Positions 21,354-37,290 of a stretch of 64,000 nucleotides of DNA are shown one piece after another. Origin of the DNA: an uncultured Clostridia bacterium (GTDB lineage: Bacteria; Bacillota; Clostridia; Christensenellales; UBA1242); NCBI GenBank assembly GCA_944384405.1, contig CALWTH010000015.1:90-64089 (forward strand). The letters run 5' to 3'. Under the pieces are notes generated by a model. It did not search any database. It was not told where the DNA came from and worked only from the letters and a program-made list of their open reading frames with translations. The first letter of the stretch is position 1. Each line of letters starts with the position of its first letter. The translations under genes and the position numbers were made by a program.

Positions 21354-23771
21354 ATGCAAAATCCAGCATCGGATAGTTTGGAAAAAGTTATAAAAAACGC
21401 TGGCAAAGTGGCGTTAAAATATGGAAGTAACCAAGTTGGTACTGAGCATATTTTGTATGGGCTTTGCAGCGTAAAAGATTGCATGGCGTCTAAAATACTT
21501 AAAGAGTATGGAATAACAAGCGAAGGCTTGACTGAAATTTTTAACGACAATTCGCAGGGAGTTTTTGTAGGCGTTGATGTTGAACTCACACCACGAAGCA
21601 AAGAGATAATCAGCATGGCAAAACAAGTTGCAATGCAACTAGGACATAACTTTGTCGGACCTGAGCATCTTCTTTTTGCACTTTTGTCCAGTCCAAATTG
21701 TTTTGCAGTTAGACTAATAACTTCATATTTTCGTGCAAATTTGACGGAAATTAAGTCAAAACTTGTTGTGTTTTTGCAAGGTAGCAATGACCTTTCTTCT
21801 GACTTGCCACAAGATGCGCAAAGAAGTTCACTTCCTGAAAAATTGCTTGATATGGGCTATGATGTCACACTTAAAGCAAGACAGGGTAAAATTGACCCCA
21901 TAATTGGTAGGGAAACGGAAATTGAACGCATAATTGAAATACTATGCAGAAAGACCAAAAACAATCCTATTTTGATTGGTGAAGCAGGGGTTGGGAAAAC
22001 GGCTATTGTTGAAGGACTTGCACAGGCGATTGTCAGCGGTAATGTACCTGAGATATTAAAAGATAAGATAATATATTCTCTCGAAATTGGTGGACTTATG
22101 GCAGGCACTAAATATCGTGGCAGTATGGAAGAAAAGCTTAAAGACACCATTGAAACAATAATTGCAAGTAAAAACATCATTGTGTTTATTGACGAAATTC
22201 ACACACTTGCACAAGCAGGTAGTGAAAAAGGCGAAACAAGCCCAAAAGATATGCTAAAGCCATATCTTGCTCGTGGAGAACTTCAAACGATTGGAGCGAC
22301 AACAACAGATGAATATGCAAAATTTATTGAAAGTGACAAGGCACTAGAAAGAAGATTTCAACCAATCATGGTCAATCCACCAACTGTTGAACAGACCATT
22401 GAAATATTAAAGGGACTAAAAGATAGTTATGAGGCATTTCATAACGTCACAATAACCGATGAGGCGATTGAAGCGGCTGCCACACTCTCAGATAGATACA
22501 TTATGGACAGGAGTTTGCCAGATAAGGCAATTGACTTAATTGATGAGGCTAGCAGTAAAGCAAAAGTCAGTTTCAACTTAAAGCCAAGTGCAATAAGGGA
22601 AAAAGAAGAAAAAATCAAGCAACTATCTGCCAATAGAGATGAGGCAAGTATTCAACGCAACTACGAAAAGGCAGCAAAAATACAGACGCAAATTTTGGAA
22701 CTTGAAGACGAACTGAAAAAACTAAATGAGAATTTCAGCAGAACATCAAACTCAAATTCAAACTCAATAGGAGCAAATGAAATTGCAGAAGTTGTTTCAA
22801 AGTGGACAGGAATACCAGTTACCAAAATAACAGAAACAGAGCGTGAAAAACTTATAAATCTTGAAAACATTCTTCATAAACGCGTAGTTGGTCAAGATGA
22901 GGCAGTTAGCGCTGTTGCAAAAGCAATTCGTAGGTCAAGAGTTGGACTTCATGACAATAAACGACCAATAGGTTCATTCTTGTTCTTAGGTCCAACGGGA
23001 GTTGGAAAGACAGAACTGTGCAAAGCAATAGCAGAAGCTATGTTTGATGACGAAAATAACATAATAAGAATAGATATGAGTGAATACATGGAGCCACATA
23101 GTGTTTCAAAGCTCATAGGTGCTCCACCGGGATATGTTGGCTTCGATGAAGGCGGACAACTGACCGAACAGGTAAGACGAAGACCATATAGCGTTGTGCT
23201 TTTTGATGAAATTGAAAAGGCACATCCAGATATATTCAACTCACTTTTGCAAGTGCTTGACGATGGAAGATTGACCGATAGTCAAGGCAGAACAGTAAAT
23301 TTCAAAAATACAATCATAATAATGACAAGTAACATTGGCAGTGAAGAAATGAATGAAAGGCATCTTGGCTTCAATTCACAGAGCATCGAAGAAGAAGATG
23401 AAATTAAAGATATATACTATCAAGCACTAAGAAGAAAACTTAAACCAGAATTTTTGAATAGGATAGATGTCATATGTGTGTTTAAACCATTAAATGAAAA
23501 TGACCTAGTGAAAATTGCAACAATTATGATATCTAATATAAATAAGCGTTTAACAAGAAGTGGACTAGAACTAAAACTCACCAATAGGGCACTTGACTAC
23601 ATCGTCAGAAGTGGAACAAATCTTCAATATGGCGCAAGACCACTTAAAAGGTATATCCAGCAAGAAGTTGAAGACAGAATTGCAGAAAAGATACTTCTTG
23701 GACAAATTAGTTCCACAGGTAGCGTAATTATTGACTGCGTTGACGGCGAATTGACATTTAAAAGTCAGTGA
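21354..23771 (+). CDS. clpC: ATP-dependent Clp protease ATP-binding subunit ClpC
   Basis: 805 aa with Clp_N repeats, two Walker A loops (GEAGVGKTA, GPTGVGKTE) and a UVR-like middle segment. Confidence 0.9.
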   Translation: MQNPASDSLEKVIKNAGKVALKYGSNQVGTEHILYGLCSVKDCMASKILKEYGITSEGLTEIFNDNSQGVFVGVDVELTPRSKEIISMAKQVAMQLGHNFVGPEHLLFALLSSPNCFAVRLITSYFRANLTEIKSKLVVFLQGSNDLSSDLPQDAQRSSLPEKLLDMGYDVTLKARQGKIDPIIGRETEIERIIEILCRKTKNNPILIGEAGVGKTAIVEGLAQAIVSGNVPEILKDKIIYSLEIGGLMAGTKYRGSMEEKLKDTIETIIASKNIIVFIDEIHTLAQAGSEKGETSPKDMLKPYLARGELQTIGATTTDEYAKFIESDKALERRFQPIMVNPPTVEQTIEILKGLKDSYEAFHNVTITDEAIEAAATLSDRYIMDRSLPDKAIDLIDEASSKAKVSFNLKPSAIREKEEKIKQLSANRDEASIQRNYEKAAKIQTQILELEDELKKLNENFSRTSNSNSNSIGANEIAEVVSKWTGIPVTKITETEREKLINLENILHKRVVGQDEAVSAVAKAIRRSRVGLHDNKRPIGSFLFLGPTGVGKTELCKAIAEAMFDDENNIIRIDMSEYMEPHSVSKLIGAPPGYVGFDEGGQLTEQVRRRPYSVVLFDEIEKAHPDIFNSLLQVLDDGRLTDSQGRTVNFKNTIIIMTSNIGSEEMNERHLGFNSQSIEEEDEIKDIYYQALRRKLKPEFLNRIDVICVFKPLNENDLVKIATIMISNINKRLTRSGLELKLTNRALDYIVRSGTNLQYGARPLKRYIQQEVEDRIAEKILLGQISSTGSVIIDCVDGELTFKSQ

Positions 23772-23813
23772 CTCATAAATCTTAAATACAATCTTTTTTG
23801 ATTATTTTTATAA

Positions 23814-23851
23814 AAAAATACTCGTAAAATTTGATTTTACGAGTATTTTTC
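23814..23851 (+). terminator. rho-independent terminator after clpC
   Basis: 17-bp stem AAAAATACTCGTAAAAT / ATTTTACGAGTATTTTT. Confidence 0.7.
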
Positions 23852-23932
23852 GTATATAATAATTACAACTAACTCTCAAAATTGTTTTTTAAAACTGAAA
23901 TTATAAAAAATAAAAAAACTTTGTGTAAAAAC

Positions 23933-23967
23933 TTGACAACTGGGGGGGGGGGGGGGGCTACTATAAA
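23933..23967 (+). promoter_or_regulatory. promoter of the giant LRR gene with a homopolymer in its spacer
   Basis: TTGACA (23933..23938). -10 candidates TACTAT (23959..23964) and TATAAA (23962..23967). The spacer is occupied by G16. Confidence 0.5.
23942..23957 (+). repeat. poly-G homopolymer, 16 nt
   Basis: Counted directly: t + 9 g, then 7 g + cta. Confidence 0.95.
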
Positions 23968-24030
23968 AATAGCCTAGGGAATGTGCAAAAACTTACCTAG
24001 GTTCTCCCATAAAAAACAAGGAGTGTAAAA

Positions 24031-27000
24031 ATGAAAAATTCCTTAAAATTAATTATCACGATTGCTATGTGTTGCATCTCAACTGCTTTGCTCGTCTTTG
24101 GTGTGTATAGTGCAAATCAAATTGATTATTCACTAACGGGCAATATTTTTTATGAGGTCAACTCTCTTTACACAGATGTGTCAACATCACTTTATGCGTT
24201 GACACAAACACAAGAACAAAGTGAGATTGATTCATATTTAAAAATGGTGGAACTGAAAGATAGTTTGGACAATAATCAATCCCTTCCTGATGATATTGTC
24301 AAATTGGACTATTCTAGTTTTTATTCAACAATGAACAATAACATAAGTGAAGAGGATACTCTGCTAGCTAGCGAAACATTTGGGGTCAGTTATGATGACT
24401 ATGATCCAGTTTTGGTGACGCCAACGGCATACACTTTTTATTTGGTGTTTGAAGTAAAAAACTATTCAAGCGAAACAATAAGTGCACTACTCGATTTTTC
24501 AAATATAACCAATAATACGACCAACACCACAGTAAATTCATTATTCACTAAGGCAAACATATACGGCAAAACAGGGGAAGAGGAATATGGAACATTTTAT
24601 TTTGTGTCGTCACTATCTTTTGATAAGCACTCTATATTAAAATCGTATAATTTTGATAACATAACATTTACAGTAAATACTGGGGAATTGGTGTCAACAC
24701 CATTGTCACAATTTACCTTCACCACAAGCAATGGTCAAGCAACATTGACGTCATATGTAGGCGATAGTACCGATGTGGTTATCCCATCTCACCTTGATGA
24801 CGGAACACCCGTCACAGAATTAGGTGGAAATGCGTTTAGAAACAAAACTATCCAAAATGTTTACATACCAGATACTATTAGTGTAATCAATGATGCTGCT
24901 TTTAGTGGTTGCACAAATTTATCTAATGTTGACATTCAAAGTAATTGTTTGACAAGCATAGGGTATTCAGTTTTTTCTGGTTGCAGTAGTTTACAAAGTA
25001 TAACAATACCAAACTCAGTGATAAGTATAGGAAGATATGCATTTAATAATTGCAGTAGTTTGCAAGGAGTGACATTGCCAAATAACGATAATTTTACAAC
25101 GATAGAAGGTGATATGTTTTATAATTGCAAGAATTTACAAAGTATCACAGTGCCAGGCTCGGTAACAAGTATAGGCAGTTATGCGTTTCGTGGTTGCAGT
25201 AGTCTGCAAGAGGTGACATTGCCAAATAACGATAACTTCACAACGATAGAAAGAGATACATTTAATGGTTGCAGTAGTTTACAAACCATCACAATACCAA
25301 AATCGGTAACAAGTATAGGATATTCTGCGTTTTCTGAATGTAGCAGCATAAAAAGAGTGCACTATTTGGGAACGGTCAACGATTGGCTTAATATAAGTTT
25401 TCATGATGGGACTTCAAACCCCATATGGTATGGTGCAAATTTGTATATAAATGGTACCTTATTTGAAGAGATCAAGGCAGAGGATTTCACTGATGGCAAA
25501 GAGGTCACAAAGATAAATGATTATGCATTTTCTGGTTGTGTCAGTTTAAAAAGTGTCACAATACCAAGTGGTGTGACAAGTATAGGAAGTTCTGCATTTT
25601 ATAGATGTAGTAGCATAAAAGATGTGTACTATTTGGGAACAGTCAATGACTGGCTTAACATAAGTTTTGGTGCTTCATCTTCAAATCCATTGAATAATGG
25701 AGCAAATTTGTATATAAATGGCACCTTATTACTTGAAGAAATAAAGGCAGAGGACTTTACTATTGGCAAAGAGGTAACAGCAATAAGCGATTATGCTTTT
25801 TATAATTGCAAAACTTTAAAAAGTGTCACAATACCAAGTGGTGTAACAAGTATAGGCAGTTATGCGTTTCGTGGTTGCAGAAGTTTACAAAGTATCACAG
25901 TGCCAGGCTCAGTAACAAGTATAGGAAGTTATGCGTTTTATGGTTGCAGTAGTTTACAAGAAGTGACGCTGCCAGATAACAATAACTTATCAACTATAGA
26001 AAATTATACATTTTATGGTTGTAATGGTTTAACAAGTATAACAATACCAGACTCAGTAACAAGTATAGGAAGTTATGCATTTGATGCTTGCAGTAATATA
26101 AAAGAAGTGTACTATTTGGGAACAGTCAATGACTGGTTTAACATAAGTTTTAGTGGTTCATCTTCAAATCCATTGAATAATGGAGCAAATTTGTATATAA
26201 ATGACACCTTACTTGAAGAGATTAGGGCAGAGGATTTTACTATTGGCAAAGAGGTAACAGCAATAAGCGAATATGCTTTTTATAATTGCAAAACTTTAAA
26301 AAGTGTTACAATACCAAGTGGTGTAACAAGTATAGGAAGTTATGCATTTAATGATTGCAGTAGTTTGCAAAGTATTATAGTGCCCGATACGGTAACAAGC
26401 ATAAGATATCAAGCGTTTACGGGTTGCAGTAATATAAAAGAAGTGTACTATTTGGGAACAGTCAATGACTGGCTTAACATAAGTTTTGGTGATTTATATT
26501 CAAATCCATTGAATAATGGAGCAAATTTGCATATAAATGATACCTTACTTGAAGAAATAAAGGCAGAGGACTTTACTGATGGTAATGAGGTCACAAAGAT
26601 AGGTTATGCATTTTATGGTTGTAATAGTTTAAAAACCATTACAATACCAGAAACGGTAACAAGTATAGGAAGTTCTGCATTTTATGGTTGCAGTAATTTA
26701 CAAGAAGTGACACTGCCAGATAACGATAAATTTACAACGATAGAAAGAAATACATTTGATGGTTGCAGTAGTTTACAAACCATCACAATCCCAGCAAATG
26801 TAACAAGTATAGGAAGTCAAGCATTTTATAATTGCAGTAGTTTACAAGAAGTGACACTGCCAGATAACGATAAATTTACAACGATAGAAAGTAATACATT
26901 TTATAATTGCTGTAGTTTATCTAGCATCACAATCCCAGCAAATGTAACAACTATAGGAAGTCAAGCATTTTGGGGTTGCAGTAATTTGTTTCTTGTTATT

Positions 27001-29007
27001 AATTTATCTACTAGTATAACAATTAGTTTGAAAAGCAGTTCAAACGGATATGTTGGATATTATGCCAAGAAAATAACAAATACTTTAAGTCAGGATAATT
27101 TTTATACTCAAGATGGAATACATTATTATGAAGATAATGAAATAAAGATTATATTAGGAATTGACATTGAGGGCTACACAATGACAATACCAGAGGGAAC
27201 AGTTGCAATAACTTCGGGACTTGTCCTTGGTTTACTTCCTGAGAGTGCTGGGAAAAACGTGATAGCAAAAGTTGTTATACCAAGTTCAGTAACAAGCATA
27301 GGGAGTTCGGCATTCAGTGGTTTTGGAAATTTAAAAGAAGTTTATTATTTGGGAACAGTCAACGACTGGCTCAATATAAGGTTTTCTAATGATACTTCGA
27401 ACCCAATGAGTTATGGTGCAAATTTGTATATAAATGATACCTTACTTGAAGAAATAAAGGCGAATGACTTTACTGATGGCAAAAATATAACTAGAATAAG
27501 CGACTATGCTTTTTATAATTGTAAAAGTTTACAAAGTATCACAATAGCGGATACTGTTGAGACCATAGGAAGTCGAGCATTTTCTGGTTGCAGTAGTTTA
27601 CAAAGTATCACAGTGCCGGGCTCGGTAACAAGTATAGGAAGTCTAGTGTTTTATGGTTGCAGTAGTATAACAGAAGTGCACTATCTTGGAACAGTCAACG
27701 ACTGGCTCAATATAAGTTTTTTTGATTCCTATGCAAATCCATTATATTTTGGTAATGCTATTTGGTATATGAACGATACATTACTTGAAGAAATAACTGT
27801 AGAGGATTTTACTAATGGTAAAGAGATAAATACGATAAGCGAATATGCATTTTATGGATGTGCCAGTTTAAAAAGCATCACAATCCCAGCAAATGTAACA
27901 AGTATAGGCAGTTCTGCGTTTGATGGTTGCAGTAATTTACAAGAAGTGACATTGCCAAATAACACTGATTTTACAACGATAGGAAGTAATACATTTTCTA
28001 ATTGCAGTAGTTTACAAACCATTACAATACCAGAAACGGTAACAAGTATAGGACGTTCTGCATTTTATAATTGCAGTAGTTTACAAAGTATTATAGTGCC
28101 AAAATCGGTAACAAGTATAGGACGTTCTGCATTTTATAATTGCAGTAGTTTACAAAGTATTATAGTGCCAAAATCGGTAACAAGTATAGGCAGTTCTGCG
28201 TTTAATGGTTGCAGTAGTTTACAAGAAGTGACATTGCCAGATAACGATAAATTTACAACTATAGAAAATCATACATTTTCTGAGTGCAGTGATTTGCAAA
28301 TCATAACAATACCAGGCTCGGTAACAAGTATAGGAGATTCAGCATTTTATAGTTGCTATGATTTGCAAACCATAACAATACCAGGCTCGGTAACAAGTAT
28401 AGGAAGTTATGCATTTTATAGTTGCAGTAGTATAAAAGAAGTGCGTTATTTGGGAACAGTCAACGACTGGCTCAATATAAGTTTTTCTATGAAAGAGTCA
28501 AATCCGATGCGCTTTACTGATAATGTGTACATAAATGATAGCCTGCTTGAAGAGATAACGGCAGAGGATTTTACGGATGGAACAAATAAAATAACAAAAA
28601 TAAACAATTATGCTTTTTATGGCTATTATAGTTTAAAAAAGGTCACAATACCGGACTTTGTGGAAAGTATCGGAAATCAAGCATTTTATAATTGCTATAA
28701 TTTACAAACCATCACAATACCAAACACTGTTGAAAACATAGGAAATTATGCATTTGATACTGATTATAGAGCTTCTTCAATTTACAGAATAATTGTTGAA
28801 AGCGAAACAGTTTTAAAAGGTTTGACGGGAACTGGAACAAGCACAATGGGTGCTTTACTTTCAACAGTGGAAGATAACTTGGATAGAATATACATTCCAG
28901 AATCTATTGAGGATTCTGTGCCTGATTATATTAAAAACAACTGGACAAAGTTTGACAAAACTGAAACAGTTAATGGAACGATATATGTTATTTATGGAAA
29001 AATATAG
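24031..29007 (+). CDS. giant BspA-type leucine-rich-repeat surface protein (1658 aa)
   Basis: N-terminal signal-anchor, then dozens of ~23-aa units of the form ITIPxSVTSIGxxAFxxCSSLQ (BspA/LRR_5 type), plus seven 58-aa YLGTVNDWLNISF modules. No LPXTG or other C-terminal anchor seen. AAGGAG RBS. Confidence 0.85.
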   Translation: MKNSLKLIITIAMCCISTALLVFGVYSANQIDYSLTGNIFYEVNSLYTDVSTSLYALTQTQEQSEIDSYLKMVELKDSLDNNQSLPDDIVKLDYSSFYSTMNNNISEEDTLLASETFGVSYDDYDPVLVTPTAYTFYLVFEVKNYSSETISALLDFSNITNNTTNTTVNSLFTKANIYGKTGEEEYGTFYFVSSLSFDKHSILKSYNFDNITFTVNTGELVSTPLSQFTFTTSNGQATLTSYVGDSTDVVIPSHLDDGTPVTELGGNAFRNKTIQNVYIPDTISVINDAAFSGCTNLSNVDIQSNCLTSIGYSVFSGCSSLQSITIPNSVISIGRYAFNNCSSLQGVTLPNNDNFTTIEGDMFYNCKNLQSITVPGSVTSIGSYAFRGCSSLQEVTLPNNDNFTTIERDTFNGCSSLQTITIPKSVTSIGYSAFSECSSIKRVHYLGTVNDWLNISFHDGTSNPIWYGANLYINGTLFEEIKAEDFTDGKEVTKINDYAFSGCVSLKSVTIPSGVTSIGSSAFYRCSSIKDVYYLGTVNDWLNISFGASSSNPLNNGANLYINGTLLLEEIKAEDFTIGKEVTAISDYAFYNCKTLKSVTIPSGVTSIGSYAFRGCRSLQSITVPGSVTSIGSYAFYGCSSLQEVTLPDNNNLSTIENYTFYGCNGLTSITIPDSVTSIGSYAFDACSNIKEVYYLGTVNDWFNISFSGSSSNPLNNGANLYINDTLLEEIRAEDFTIGKEVTAISEYAFYNCKTLKSVTIPSGVTSIGSYAFNDCSSLQSIIVPDTVTSIRYQAFTGCSNIKEVYYLGTVNDWLNISFGDLYSNPLNNGANLHINDTLLEEIKAEDFTDGNEVTKIGYAFYGCNSLKTITIPETVTSIGSSAFYGCSNLQEVTLPDNDKFTTIERNTFDGCSSLQTITIPANVTSIGSQAFYNCSSLQEVTLPDNDKFTTIESNTFYNCCSLSSITIPANVTTIGSQAFWGCSNLFLVINLSTSITISLKSSSNGYVGYYAKKITNTLSQDNFYTQDGIHYYEDNEIKIILGIDIEGYTMTIPEGTVAITSGLVLGLLPESAGKNVIAKVVIPSSVTSIGSSAFSGFGNLKEVYYLGTVNDWLNIRFSNDTSNPMSYGANLYINDTLLEEIKANDFTDGKNITRISDYAFYNCKSLQSITIADTVETIGSRAFSGCSSLQSITVPGSVTSIGSLVFYGCSSITEVHYLGTVNDWLNISFFDSYANPLYFGNAIWYMNDTLLEEITVEDFTNGKEINTISEYAFYGCASLKSITIPANVTSIGSSAFDGCSNLQEVTLPNNTDFTTIGSNTFSNCSSLQTITIPETVTSIGRSAFYNCSSLQSIIVPKSVTSIGRSAFYNCSSLQSIIVPKSVTSIGSSAFNGCSSLQEVTLPDNDKFTTIENHTFSECSDLQIITIPGSVTSIGDSAFYSCYDLQTITIPGSVTSIGSYAFYSCSSIKEVRYLGTVNDWLNISFSMKESNPMRFTDNVYINDSLLEEITAEDFTDGTNKITKINNYAFYGYYSLKKVTIPDFVESIGNQAFYNCYNLQTITIPNTVENIGNYAFDTDYRASSIYRIIVESETVLKGLTGTGTSTMGALLSTVEDNLDRIYIPESIEDSVPDYIKNNWTKFDKTETVNGTIYVIYGKI
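28037..28174 (+). repeat. perfect 69-bp tandem duplication inside the LRR gene
   Basis: 28037..28105 is identical to 28106..28174 (encoding SVTSIGRSAFYNCSSLQSIIVPK twice). The next 16 nt repeat again before diverging. Confidence 0.9.
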
Positions 29008-35061: not shown

Positions 35062-37290
35062 ATGATAGTTGAAAATGGAATATTGCTTAAAGTTGATGAA
35101 AAGGATATTGAACTCCTAAACAAAAATCCCAAAAAATTTTGGGAAGGTATATATCACATTGGTGACGGAGCTTTTCAAGATTGTACAAGTTTAAAAAACA
35201 TAGAGATACCAAATAGTGTAACAAGTATAGGTAAAGAAGCTTTTCAAGATTGTTCAAATTTAGAGAATATAGTTATACCAAACAGTGTAACAGCTATTGG
35301 AGATTTTGCGTTTTCTTATTGTACAAATTTAAAAAAAATAGAGATACCAAATAGTGTAAAAAGTATTGGAAATTCTGCTTTTGCGAGTTGTACAAGTTTA
35401 AATGATATAGAGATACCCAATAGTGTAACAGCTATTGGAGATTCTGCGTTTTTTAATTGTACAAGTTTAAAAGAAATAGATATACCAAATAGTGTGACAG
35501 CTATTGGAAATTCTGCGTTTGTTAATTGTACAAGTTTAAAAGAAATAAATATACCAAATAGTGTGACAGCTATTGGAGATTCTGTGTTTGAAAATTGTAG
35601 CAATTTAAAAGAAATAGATATACCAAATAGTGTGACGGCTATTGGAAATTCTGCGTTTGTTAATTGTACAAGTTTAAAAGAAATAAATATACCAAATAGT
35701 GTGACAGCTATTGGGGATTCTGCGTTTGAAAATTGTATAAACACAAGAAATATAGAGATACCAAATAGTGTAACAAGTATTGGTGACAGAGCTTTTCAAT
35801 ATTGTACAAGTTTAGGAAATATAGAGATACCAAATAGTGTAACAAGTATTGGAAAATCTGCCTTTTATGGAGTAAGGAATGTACAAATTCAAGATAAACA
35901 TATAATAGGAGATATATTAAGCACCGGAATATTTGAACTTATTAAAAATAATCCAAACATTAATTTAAAACAACTAACAAAAATATATTCAATCGCCAAA
36001 AATAAGGGCATCAATGTTGATAATACAAATGACTTTTTAGCATTATGCTATAATATTGGCATGCTTGAAAATAGGTCTTCAACGCTTACTATCAATAAAA
36101 ATGGCAAGACAAACAATGTCCCTATATGTGATTTGGCATATACTTTTATTCAAGGTTTAATTAATCATAATGAATTGGCTCTTAATGACTTGCATATGAA
36201 TTTGCAAGATTTAAAATTCAATAAATTTAATATAAATTTTGCAAGGTTTGTTGTGAACAAAAATAATTGGTCAGATATAAAAGAAAATTTACATTTATTA
36301 TCACGTATTTATGCATGGTTTGATTCAAGGGCAAATTTGGATTTAGAAAATAATGAATATTCGCTTTTGCCAACAACTGAAGAAAATAGATATAAAATTT
36401 TGGTATACGAAACTGCAGAAAATGGGATAGATAGAATGCATTGGAGAAATCCCACTGTTGAGCTTTTATTAAAAGAATTTGCCAATAATAAATTTGTTGG
36501 AATAAATACCCCAAGAGAAAAAGAAATAGCAGAGTATTTAACACAGTATAACATTTACACGCAGAAACATTTTGAAAAAGCAAAAGAAATCGATGAAGAA
36601 AGAAGGAATAGTGGAGTTCAAGATATTTTACGTAAACCTATTTCACAAGATAGAATTTCAAGTCTAGACGAATATAGAGAAAAAACTAAACAAATGAGAG
36701 AAAAAATTTTAAGTGATGCTTCGGAAGTTCTTTCAAAACAAATTGAAGATACATCTTCAATTTTCACTTATGAAGTTTTGTCTAAAGATTCTGTTGAAAA
36801 CTTTGCTATGGGATGTATGACGAGTTGTTGTGCAACATTATATGGTGCAGGAGCGGGAGCAATGAGAGCAATGATAAATCACCCTGATATTCAACCATTT
36901 GTCATAAGAGATTTTGATAACAAGATAATATCTTTTGGTATCATATATGTAAATAGGGAACAGGGATATGCAGTTGTGAATGATTTTGAAGTAAATAAAA
37001 AGTATATGGATAGAGATGAACAGAGAAAGGCAATTTATGATAAAGCAATGGAAGGTATACGCGCTTTTGTAAAAGAGTATAATTTAGAAAATCCGGAAAA
37101 GCCCATAAGAAAAGTGACAAGTGGCATCTCTCCAAACTGGACTGCAATTAATGATTATATACGTCAAAATCCAAAAAGTGAAATCTTAAAAGCACCAAAT
37201 TTTAATGATTTTAAATATGCAGGTAGTGGGTTATGGCCAGGAGATTGGCATAGAGAACAATACAAGATATTTGACATGGGGGGAAAATGA
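35062..37290 (+). CDS. signal-less BspA-type LRR protein with a ~470-aa uncharacterised C-terminal domain
   Basis: About 11 units of IEIPNSVTAIGxSAFxNCTSLKEI follow an N-terminus with no hydrophobic leader. The C-terminal domain contains GCMTSCCATLYGAGAGAMRAM; no family recognised. Confidence 0.7.
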   Translation: MIVENGILLKVDEKDIELLNKNPKKFWEGIYHIGDGAFQDCTSLKNIEIPNSVTSIGKEAFQDCSNLENIVIPNSVTAIGDFAFSYCTNLKKIEIPNSVKSIGNSAFASCTSLNDIEIPNSVTAIGDSAFFNCTSLKEIDIPNSVTAIGNSAFVNCTSLKEINIPNSVTAIGDSVFENCSNLKEIDIPNSVTAIGNSAFVNCTSLKEINIPNSVTAIGDSAFENCINTRNIEIPNSVTSIGDRAFQYCTSLGNIEIPNSVTSIGKSAFYGVRNVQIQDKHIIGDILSTGIFELIKNNPNINLKQLTKIYSIAKNKGINVDNTNDFLALCYNIGMLENRSSTLTINKNGKTNNVPICDLAYTFIQGLINHNELALNDLHMNLQDLKFNKFNINFARFVVNKNNWSDIKENLHLLSRIYAWFDSRANLDLENNEYSLLPTTEENRYKILVYETAENGIDRMHWRNPTVELLLKEFANNKFVGINTPREKEIAEYLTQYNIYTQKHFEKAKEIDEERRNSGVQDILRKPISQDRISSLDEYREKTKQMREKILSDASEVLSKQIEDTSSIFTYEVLSKDSVENFAMGCMTSCCATLYGAGAGAMRAMINHPDIQPFVIRDFDNKIISFGIIYVNREQGYAVVNDFEVNKKYMDRDEQRKAIYDKAMEGIRAFVKEYNLENPEKPIRKVTSGISPNWTAINDYIRQNPKSEILKAPNFNDFKYAGSGLWPGDWHREQYKIFDMGGK
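35466..35741 (+). repeat. near-perfect 138-bp tandem duplication (two LRR units each)
   Basis: 35466..35603 versus 35604..35741; I counted about 3 mismatches. Confidence 0.85.

What the first reader, a model, noticed from the sequence alone, without database searches (positions are those of the whole stretch)
23933..23967. G16 homopolymer in the -35/-10 spacer of the 1658-aa LRR surface protein gene: candidate slipped-strand phase switch
The only long G/C homopolymer I saw in this AT-rich window lies between a perfect TTGACA and the -10-like hexamers TACTAT/TATAAA. With 16 G the spacer is 20 nt (to TACTAT) or 23 nt (to TATAAA). Losing 3 or 6 G would restore the optimal 17 nt, so the present allele looks like a low/OFF state. 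Promoter-spacer homopolymers are an established on/off device for surface antigens (Mycoplasma hyorhinis vlp poly-A, Neisseria porA/opc poly-G/C). The downstream gene is a huge repetitive surface protein, the usual kind of target.
Basis: partly seen in the sequence, partly recalled or inferred. Interest (0 to 1): 0.75.

Follow-up and report, generated by a model that had tools for sequence, protein, structure and literature searches.

The report
Poly-G tract inside a surface-protein promoter
A real run of 16 G sits between the two halves of the predicted promoter of a giant surface-protein gene in an uncultured chicken-gut bacterium. It most likely sets the gene's expression level by gaining or losing G's, a known trick of pathogens not so far reported, in the papers I could search, for this group of gut commensals.

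Summary
G16 lies at 23942-23957, between a perfect TTGACA and TACTAT (spacer 20), and is the only G/C run above 6 in 64 kb. It is not an artefact: contigs from two other studies bridge it with identical flanks. Length variation is only hinted at. The window and two contigs read G16. One contig reads G18-T-G, and that is its sole difference from the window in 7049 nt. Other assemblies break at the tract. No raw reads or RNA were available, so neither switching nor the transcription start is shown.

Comparative evidence supports the promoter reading:
- In 677 kb from relatives, 5 of 6 G/C runs of 9 or more sit in -35/-10 geometry.
- A metagenome scan found at least 89 families of TTGACA-N-G(9-14)-TAnAAT promoters.
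- 63% of those families precede secreted or lipoprotein genes.
- Near-identical strains often differ by 1-2 G.

Two results weaken the "OFF allele" claim. Most alleles in this class have non-17 spacers. One short class (15-16), which includes about 24 promoters of a jumbo phage, keeps a fixed length.

Verdict: a probable new member of the PorA/TP0126-type switch (about 0.55), not demonstrated.

The parts
21354..23771 (+). clpC-type AAA+ chaperone gene, last gene of the upstream mcsA-mcsB-clpC operon. It is the conserved backbone gene.
   Evidence: Pfam Clp_N, AAA, AAA_2, ClpB_D2-small. 805-aa orthologues occur in 80 related MAGs.
23818..23850 (+). Intrinsic-terminator hairpin of clpC (ATACTCGTAAAA-TTTGA-TTTTACGAGTAT followed by T5). 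It is a repeated element of this genome.
   Evidence: Read. Inverted repeat I1. Many Logan contigs from elsewhere in the genome pile up on 23808-23850. Conserved in L008.
23831..23860 (+). Alternative promoter-like site TTGATT-18-TATAAT overlapping the terminator loop. This is the rival TSS, which would put the G tract in a roughly 165-nt leader.
   Evidence: Consensus scan, 10 of 12 matches. The equivalent TTGATT-18-TATACT is present in L008.
23922..23934 (+). First copy of the 13-nt direct repeat TGTGTAAAAACTT. The second copy is at 23982-23994, and the two bracket the promoter core.
   Evidence: the repeat finder family D2, 92% identity, 60 nt apart.
23933..23938 (+). Predicted -35 hexamer TTGACA (perfect consensus).
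   Evidence: Sequence. The same 9-mer TTGACAACT precedes a C9 tract in the L033 promoter.
23942..23957 (+). G16 homopolymer in the promoter spacer, the candidate slipped-strand tract.
   Evidence: G16 in L002 and L003, G18-T-G in L001. Contig breaks at or in the tract in BRZ_SB and in Logan runs X1, X2 and X7.
23959..23964 (+). Predicted -10 hexamer TACTAT (spacer 20 with G16, 17 with G13).
   Evidence: Sequence. It meets the TAnnnT rule. A TTCACT-17-TACTAT promoter-like sequence follows another copy of the terminator repeat in the same metagenomes (loose ends).
23962..23967 (+). Second -10-like hexamer TATAAA (spacer 23). This is the weaker candidate because it has no T at the last position.
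   Evidence: Sequence.
23971..24003 (+). Predicted leader hairpin (AGCCUAGG...CCUAGGUU). A second hairpin pairs the RBS AAGGAGU with AUUCCUU in codons 4-6.
   Evidence: RNA fold of 23965-24045: -18.1 kcal/mol, z = -2.9.
24018..24023 (+). Ribosome-binding site AAGGAG, 7 nt before the ATG.
   Evidence: Sequence.
24031..29007 (+). 1658-aa BspA-type leucine-rich-repeat protein with an N-terminal membrane anchor or signal. It is an accessory gene inserted between clpC and a convergent PRK-family kinase gene.
   Evidence: Pfam LRR_5 9e-275 and LRR_8. Absent between clpC and PRK in L005, L006, L007 and L016. Present without a G tract in L008.
28153..28221 (+). One extra 69-nt (23-aa) LRR unit relative to other assemblies of the same species. 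This is a second, recombinational layer of variation.
   Evidence: 1658 aa against 1635 aa with a single 23-aa gap. 69-nt tandem arrays.

Best explanation
The G16 run is a hypermutable spacer element of the SigA-type promoter (TTGACA 23933-38 / TACTAT 23959-64) of an accessory BspA-type LRR surface-protein gene. The organism is an uncultured chicken-gut Clostridia (Christensenellales-like) bacterium.

Proposed mechanism: slipped-strand mispairing during replication adds or removes G's. This changes the distance and angle between the -35 and -10 hexamers and so changes promoter strength, stepwise and reversibly. It acts as a rheostat or ON/OFF switch, as in N. meningitidis porA and T. pallidum tp0126. 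With 16 G the spacer is 20 nt, three steps from the 17-nt optimum that ordinary promoters of this clade show, so the sequenced allele is probably weak.

Shown: the tract, its promoter-like setting, its presence in independent assemblies, one tract-only length variant, recurrence of the design in relatives and metagenomes, and its association with secreted proteins.

Inferred: that the hexamers are the working promoter, that length changes occur at high rate in this organism, and that they change expression.
For: - Sequence anatomy.
- Independent bridging contigs with identical flanks from two studies.
- L001 differs from the window in 7049 nt only by +4 nt in the tract.
- Assemblies repeatedly break at the tract.
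- Perfect TTGACA/-10 pairs in this clade peak at spacer 17: 44 cases against about 8 background.
- In 677 kb of the window plus related loci, G/C runs are bimodal (fourteen of 6, none of 7-8, then 9, 9, 9, 9, 11, 16). Five of the six long ones lie between a -35 and a -10, against a background of 1.7%, P about 9e-9 with post hoc criteria.
- Three of those five precede surface-repeat proteins: LRR_5 here and Flg_new in L051 and L059.
- The sister-species orthologue (L008) has the gene but no tract, so the tract is a recent gain, as is typical of contingency loci.
- The metagenome scan found at least 89 families of G9-14 spacer promoters. 10 of 17 multi-sample families differ in spacer length, and some pairs have 0-2 mismatches in about 410 nt of flank.
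- 47 of 75 downstream genes have signal or TM N-termini against 104 of 618 neighbouring genes (odds ratio 8.3, P 3e-16).
- The mechanism is established for porA (PMC3639595) and for tp0126/tpr (PMC7864442).
Against: - No raw reads were available, so within-population heterogeneity is untested.
- No RNA runs were available, so the TSS is unknown.
- The window and two other assemblies all give G16, which suggests either selection for this length or a modest switching rate.
- The only variant is interrupted (G18-T-G). It sits where Illumina reads visibly degrade, with unmatched, apparently garbled contig tails in BRZ_SB, so it may be an error.
- G13, three steps away, is needed for a 17-nt spacer.
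- In the wider class 17-nt spacers are rare and 15-16-nt alleles are length-conserved across diverged relatives. A jumbo phage uses G8-9 blocks as a fixed promoter module. So a G tract in a spacer does not by itself prove switching, and the 17-nt rule may not hold for these promoters.
- A second promoter-like site lies upstream.
Confidence: 0.55

Rival explanations
1. Static G-block promoter. The G run directly upstream of the -10 is a fixed architectural or recognition module of a promoter class, as in the jumbo-phage promoters and the length-conserved 15-16-nt bacterial families. Its length is held by selection, and the gene is simply transcribed from it rather than phase-varied.
For: - About 24 G8-9 blocks occur in one phage contig. 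Nearly all abut TAnAAT, and most have TTGACA 7-10 nt upstream.
- The L111 family (G10) and L144 family (G9) keep their length across 15-30% flank divergence.
- G16 was read in the window and in two other assemblies.
Against: - The window tract is far longer than the conserved G8-10 blocks, and its spacer (20) falls in the length-variable 18-21 class, not the conserved 15-16 class.
- The sister-species orthologue has no tract.
- A tract-only variant exists.
- By established knowledge of other bacteria, G runs of this length are intrinsically unstable.
Confidence: 0.2
2. Leader element. Transcription starts at the upstream TTGATT-18-TATAAT site (23831-23860) or reads through from clpC. The G16 then lies in the 5' leader, where it acts through RNA polymerase slippage or pausing, or through a G-quadruplex (G16 can supply four G3 runs with 1-nt loops), rather than through promoter spacing.
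For: - The upstream site scores 10 of 12 and has an equivalent in L008.
- The leader has predicted structure, including an RBS-sequestering hairpin.
Against: - The -35 of that site is the loop of a strong terminator hairpin, which is itself a repeated element, so its conservation is explained by termination.
- The recurrent placement of long G runs exactly between -35 and -10 hexamers in unrelated loci favours the spacer reading.
- In the metagenomic class the RBS and ATG follow the -10 by only 25-45 nt.
Confidence: 0.1
3. Decayed or locked promoter. The tract has expanded beyond any useful range, the gene is effectively silent from this promoter, and the G16 is a neutral remnant.
For: - The spacer of 20 is three steps from the optimum.
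- The gene is accessory and absent from several sister species.
- The -35 position that aligns with the L008 promoter has degenerated in the window.
Against: - The 4977-nt ORF is intact, with only 3 substitutions plus an in-frame repeat-unit change between assemblies. This argues for continued selection on the protein.
- Spacers of 20-21 are common among intact metagenomic members of the class.
Confidence: 0.1
4. Sequencing or assembly artefact (a two-colour poly-G read tail or a false join).
For: - Contigs often end at the tract.
- Two BRZ_SB contigs carry about 70 nt of unmatched sequence beyond it.
- No Logan contig bridges it.
Against: - Three contigs from two studies and pipelines bridge it with identical flanks.
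- Contigs that start inside the tract continue into the right flank. That orientation cannot arise from 3' poly-G read tails.
Confidence: 0.03

Closest known systems
Neisseria meningitidis porA promoter poly-G (also opc and fetA poly-C)
   Same: A homopolymeric G tract sits between the -35 and -10 of a surface-protein gene. In porA, 11G, 10G and 9G give graded expression and mediate antibody escape (PMC3639595; summary in PMC7864442).
   Different: The organism here is a Gram-positive-type gut commensal of the Clostridia. The tract is longer (16 against 9-11). The sequenced allele is above the optimal spacing, not at or below it. Neither variation nor an expression effect has been measured here.
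Treponema pallidum tp0126 (OmpW homologue) and tprE/G/J/L promoter poly-G tracts
   Same: Poly-G lies within the promoter. For tp0126 it lies between -35 and -10, with best transcription when the spacer is 17 nt. Lengths vary within isolates, and the targets are surface proteins (PMC7864442).
   Different: The phylum differs. Tract lengths there are 7-12. That work has fragment-length analysis, TSS mapping and reporter data, none of which exists for this locus.
Mycoplasma hyorhinis vlp promoter poly-A tracts; Bordetella pertussis fim poly-C; Haemophilus influenzae hifA/B TA repeats (from my own knowledge, not checked in a paper here)
   Same: Repeat tracts in or next to the promoter spacer switch surface lipoproteins or fimbriae on and off by changing spacing.
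   Different: The repeat base or unit and the organisms differ. Those loci often sit in multigene families, whereas only one tract is visible in this 64-kb window.
Bifidobacterium breve pilus-gene G-tract slippage switch
   Same: It is a gut commensal that uses a G homopolymer to vary a surface structure (PMC9187656, abstract seen).
   Different: As I recall (not checked here), that switch acts by an intragenic frameshift, whereas this tract lies in a promoter spacer.
BspA-type LRR surface proteins (Tannerella forsythia BspA; Pfam PF13306)
   Same: The product has many LRR_5 units and a secretion or anchor signal.
   Different: There is no evidence of the adhesin function here. The anchoring mode is unknown: no LPXTG is visible in the last 200 residues, and Pfam found no anchor domain.

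Membership tests
Promoter-spacer homopolymer phase-variable locus (porA / tp0126 type) | [quoted passage not shown] | tested here: met
   TTGACA-ACT-G16-C-TACTAT. The promoter itself is predicted, not mapped.
Promoter-spacer homopolymer phase-variable locus (porA / tp0126 type) | Tract length varies within and between populations of the same strain | tested here: inconclusive
   G16 in the window, L002 and L003. G18-T-G in L001, as the only difference in 7049 nt. Several contig breaks at the tract. No raw reads were obtainable.
Promoter-spacer homopolymer phase-variable locus (porA / tp0126 type) | Transcription starts just downstream of the predicted -10 | not testable with these tools
   No RNA run holds the locus.
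Promoter-spacer homopolymer phase-variable locus (porA / tp0126 type) | Expression level depends on tract length | not testable with these tools
   This needs reporter fusions or allele-resolved transcript data.
Promoter-spacer homopolymer phase-variable locus (porA / tp0126 type) | The controlled gene encodes a surface or host-interaction product | tested here: met
   LRR_5 at 9e-275 and an N-terminal hydrophobic anchor. The wider class is enriched for signal peptides.
BspA-type LRR protein (PF13306) | Multiple LRR_5 repeats above the Pfam gathering score | tested here: met
   895 bits against a cut-off of 27.7, 10 stretches.
Invertible promoter (inverton) | Inverted repeats of about 15-30 nt flanking the promoter, usually with a nearby recombinase | tested here: not met
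   Only AT-rich low-complexity pairs were found around 23600-24300.
Two-colour-chemistry poly-G artefact or assembly join | Poly-G appears only at read or contig 3' ends, with no reproducible flanks on both sides | tested here: not met
   The tract is bridged with identical flanks in L001, L002 and L003. Contigs that start in the tract run into the right flank.
Intramolecular G-quadruplex element | Four G runs of 3 or more with short loops, and demonstrated folding | not tested
   G16 could supply G3-G-G3-G-G3-G-G3 from sequence alone. The folding tools used here do not model G4.

The most novel reading that the evidence does not exclude
The window's tract is one instance of a widespread promoter design in gut Firmicutes that I did not find described in the papers I could search. 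The design is TTGACA, a short A/T-rich stretch, a G run of 9-14 (here 16) that directly abuts (here, lies one base from) the -10, and then a secreted or lipoprotein gene. It comes in two forms. A short-spacer form (15-16 nt) has a conserved length and is also used about 24 times by one jumbo phage. A long-spacer form (18-21 nt) differs in G number between near-identical strains. If the long form switches by slippage, commensal Clostidia would have a multi-locus 'phasome' of surface proteins built on promoter homopolymers, alongside the invertons already known in gut bacteria. The near-absence of 17-nt spacers would then mean either that natural populations sit mostly in low or OFF states, or that G-tract spacers have a different optimal geometry.
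Probability: 0.35. Interest if true: 0.75.

Novelty: new member of a known kind. Interest (0 to 1): 0.5.

Why it matters
Phase variation by simple repeats is textbook for Neisseria, Haemophilus, Campylobacter, Mycoplasma and Treponema. [quoted passage not shown] In that review, the Clostridia and Bacteroides examples are all DNA inversions.

A promoter-homopolymer switch on a BspA-type adhesin-like protein in a chicken-gut Christensenellales-like commensal would extend the mechanism to a major group of uncultured gut anaerobes. This locus comes with at least 89 similar promoter families in front of secreted proteins in metagenomes.

It also matters practically. Such tracts break short-read assemblies and are mis-called in MAGs, so the expression state of surface proteins is invisible in standard metagenomic pipelines.

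Tried and rejected
- **Read-level tract histogram.** All runs holding the locus are served only as Logan contigs, and none bridges the tract. No RNA runs were found.
- **Exact-flank scan of JGI metagenomes.** No hits, so the species is apparently absent there.
- **Exact-protein look-ups for the 1658-aa and 1646-aa LRR protein.** Not on record.
- **Homologue search with the N-terminal 260 aa.** One weak hit only, so it gave no extra assemblies.
- **Look-ups with ClpC, McsB, McsA and the PRK-like kinase.** These returned the same four ENA samples plus one Logan run.
- **Unmatched contig tails in BRZ_SB** (73 nt after the tract in L085, 67 nt before CTACTAT in L088). I considered them as evidence of a structural variant or promoter shuffling. 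I now treat them as probable garbled read tails. 
- **Inverton.** Rejected because there are no flanking inverted repeats.
- **Rfam.** Nothing at the locus.
- **Sigma-F-like reading of 'GG + TAAAAT'.** Considered and dropped because the -35 does not fit and the gene class is wrong.
- **A-form helix explanation for the odd spacer distribution.** It does not account for the 15-16 class, so the distribution is left unexplained.

Full report
**1. The observation**

The sequence reads ...AAAAAC-TTGACA-ACT-GGGGGGGGGGGGGGGG-C-TACTAT-AAAAATAGCC....
- TTGACA is at 23933-23938.
- G16 is at 23942-23957.
- TACTAT is at 23959-23964, giving a spacer of 20.
- TATAAA is at 23962-23967, giving a spacer of 23.

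The window is 32.5% G+C. The only other G/C run of 6 or more is a G6 inside a coding region, and there are no C runs of 6 or more. About 1e-7 runs of 16 are expected from composition. TACTAT keeps the T-A---T positions of a -10. TATAAA lacks the final T and is the weaker candidate. The finding is accurate as described.

**2. The neighbourhood**

Upstream lies an mcsA-mcsB-clpC operon. It ends in a strong terminator hairpin at 23818-23850. That hairpin is a repeated element of this genome, because many unrelated Logan contigs pile up on it.

Downstream, 67 nt after the -10, an AAGGAG RBS precedes a 1658-aa ORF (24031-29007).
- It has ten LRR_5 (BspA-type) stretches, E 9e-275.
- Its N-terminus is hydrophobic: MKNSLKLIITIAMCCISTALLVFGVYSA.

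The organism is an uncultured chicken-gut member of the Clostridia. The 80 closest clpC loci are MAGs titled 'uncultured Clostridia', 'Christensenella sp.' or Candidatus Caccopulliclostridium.

The LRR gene is accessory.
- In L016, L005, L006 and L007, clpC is followed directly by the convergent PRK-family kinase gene. In the window that gene lies after the LRR gene.
- Only L008 has an orthologue, 59% identical over the N-terminus, and it has no G tract. Its TTGACA aligns with a degenerated position about 50 nt downstream in the window.

So the tract is a recent, species-level feature.

**3. Real or artefact?**

Exact-protein look-ups retrieved four ENA assemblies and one Logan contig of the same species.
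- L002 and L003 come from two different studies and assemblers. Both bridge the tract with identical flanks and read G16.
- L001 reads G18-T-G. Over 7049 aligned bases that 4-nt insertion is its only difference from the window.
- In sample BRZ_SB the locus is split. The left contig ends G15-A-G5 plus 73 unmatched bases. The right contig begins with 67 unmatched bases and then CTACTAT. The tails match nothing held here. By eye they loosely resemble shifted copies of the true flanks, so I read them as degraded read ends.
- Logan contigs of runs X1 and X2 begin inside the tract and run into the right flank. X7, a roughly 93%-identical strain, begins exactly after the tract. None bridges it.

A contig that starts with G's and continues into the right flank cannot come from 3' poly-G read tails, and three contigs bridge the tract. 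The artefact reading is therefore rejected. Whether G18-T-G is a true allele or a homopolymer error cannot be decided. No raw reads and no RNA runs are served for this locus.

**4. Is it a promoter?**

In 677 kb of the window plus related loci, perfect TTGACA followed by a near-consensus -10 peaks sharply at a 17-nt spacer, 44 cases against about 8 per neighbouring length. The clade therefore uses standard SigA geometry.

G/C runs in the same 677 kb are bimodal: fourteen of length 6, none of 7 or 8, then 9, 9, 9, 9, 11 and 16. Five of the six long runs lie between a -35 (5 of 6 matches or better) and a TAnnnT -10.

| Locus | Layout | Spacer |
|---|---|---|
| L021 | TTGACA-10-G9-TAGAAT | 19 |
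| L051 | TTGACA-9-G9-TAGAAT | 18 |
| L059 | TTGATA-9-G11-TATAGT | 20 |
| L033 | TTGACAACT-C9-GAG-TATAAT | 15 |
| window | TTGACA-ACT-G16-C-TACTAT | 20 |

That geometry occurs at 1.7% of random positions, which gives P of about 9e-9. The criteria were set after seeing the data.

The genes behind the L051 and L059 promoters have signal- or lipoprotein-like N-termini and Listeria-Bacteroides repeats.

A rival promoter-like site, TTGATT-18-TATAAT at 23831-23860, exists. Its -35 is the terminator loop.

**5. The wider class**

These fall into 89 families with 25-66% G+C, and many are from human gut.
- Most are followed within 25-45 nt by an RBS and start codon, so they look like working promoters.
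- 47 of 75 downstream proteins have signal or TM-like N-termini, against 104 of 618 neighbouring ORFs (odds ratio 8.3, P 3e-16).
- 19 of 75 have a lipobox, against 19 of 618.
- Pfam content is diverse and includes Big_2, Beta_helix, DUF4352 and one LRR_5.
- In 10 of 17 families seen in more than one sample the spacer length differs. This includes pairs with 0-2 mismatches in about 410 nt of flank: L116/L202 (G9/G10), L101/L139 and L104/L123. L096/L126 (G11/G9) has five mismatches, all in the upstream flank.

This shows that G number in such promoters changes on the timescale of strain divergence. It is indirect support for the same behaviour here.

**6. Two complications**

*Spacer lengths.* The family-level spacer distribution is 15:12, 16:15, 17:4, 18:21, 19:25, 20:10, 21:2. 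The textbook optimum of 17 is the rarest value. Part of this is a search effect, because alleles with fewer than 9 G are invisible. That does not explain the scarcity of 6-nt gaps paired with G11.

*Fixed-length blocks.* The 15-16 class keeps its length. The L111 family holds G10, and the L144 family holds G9, across flanks that are 15-30% diverged. One jumbo-phage contig carries about 24 G8-9 blocks. Nearly all directly precede TAnAAT, and most have TTGACA 7-10 nt upstream.

So a G block next to the -10 can be a fixed promoter module. The window allele belongs by length to the variable 18-21 class.

**7. Mechanism and confidence**

The best-supported reading is a slipped-strand rheostat or switch in the promoter spacer of a surface LRR protein gene. 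It is analogous to porA, where 11G, 10G and 9G give graded expression and antibody escape (PMC3639595). It is also analogous to T. pallidum tp0126, where transcription is best when the poly-G makes a 17-nt spacer (PMC7864442).

I put this at about 0.55. The rivals are:
- a static G-block promoter, 0.2;
- a leader or G-quadruplex element behind the upstream site, 0.1;
- a decayed promoter, 0.1;
- an artefact, 0.03.

The gene carries a second layer of variation. The window has one more 69-nt LRR unit (28153-28221) than two other assemblies, which are otherwise 3 substitutions apart. No inverted repeats suggest an inverton.

**8. Novelty**

The mechanism is known. Its occurrence in Christensenellales-like gut commensals was not found in the literature I could search. 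The 2025 review of phase variation cites only inversion systems for Clostridioides difficile and for Bacteroides. It also asks whether the restriction of multi-locus phase variation to pathogens is a sampling bias.

I therefore rate the finding as a new member of a known kind with moderate interest. The class-wide pattern is the more novel, and less certain, lead.

Noticed in passing
L219, L229, L234, L235 (all IMGVR_UViG_3300015214_000001, 208 kb): A jumbo-phage contig (about 40% G+C) carries about 24 G8-9 blocks in about 40 kb. Nearly all sit directly before TAGAAT or TAAAAT, and most have TTGACA 7-10 nt upstream (spacer 15-16). This looks like a phage promoter consensus with a built-in G block.
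   Followed up: partly
L095-L214 (metagenome loci): Among 89 families of TTGACA-N-G(9 or more)-TAnAAT promoters, the spacer distribution dips at 17 (4 families) and peaks at 15-16 and 18-19. The short class keeps its length across diverged relatives, while the long class varies between near-identical strains. This is unexplained.
   Followed up: partly
window 28153-28221: The window has one extra 69-nt (23-aa) LRR unit relative to assemblies L087 and L088 of the same species. The gene contains several 69-, 144-, 267- and 480-nt tandem arrays.
   Followed up: yes
window 23808-23850: The clpC terminator hairpin is a multi-copy element. Many Logan contigs from other genomic places align to it. 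In those contigs it is followed by promoter-like sequences of the form TTGACT/TTCACT-17-TACTCT/TACTAT.
   Followed up: no
window 23922-23934 and 23982-23994: A 13-nt direct repeat TGTG(T/C)AAAAACTT, 60 nt apart, brackets the -35, the G tract and the -10. It may be a trace of a duplication or insertion that created this promoter. The L008 orthologue lacks the intervening segment.
   Followed up: partly
window 24018-24045: A predicted hairpin pairs the RBS AAGGAGU with AUUCCUU in codons 4-6 of the LRR gene. The fold of 23965-24045 has z = -2.9.
   Followed up: no
window 35062-37290: A second BspA-type LRR_5 protein (742 aa) lies downstream of the mur/ftsW genes. It has no homopolymer upstream. 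Its last codons contain the window's only other G run (G6 at 37278), placed right after a TTGACA.
   Followed up: partly
L085 8107-8179 and L088 12427-12493: Two contigs of sample BRZ_SB end at the tract with about 70 nt that match nothing held here. They are probably degraded reads across the homopolymer. A structural variant with its breakpoint at the tract is not fully excluded.
   Followed up: partly
L021 60-330: A G+C-rich, structured-looking 200-nt segment with no Rfam hit lies just upstream of the L021 G9 promoter. That promoter points at the 3' end of a convergent dinB-like gene and has no ORF of its own.
   Followed up: no
L005 1200-1250: A G9 run lies next to a sequence that resembles the 3' half of a tRNA (TGGTGGGAGTCGAACCCAC on the minus strand). 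ARAGORN does not call it. It may be a tRNA fragment or an attachment-site remnant.
   Followed up: partly
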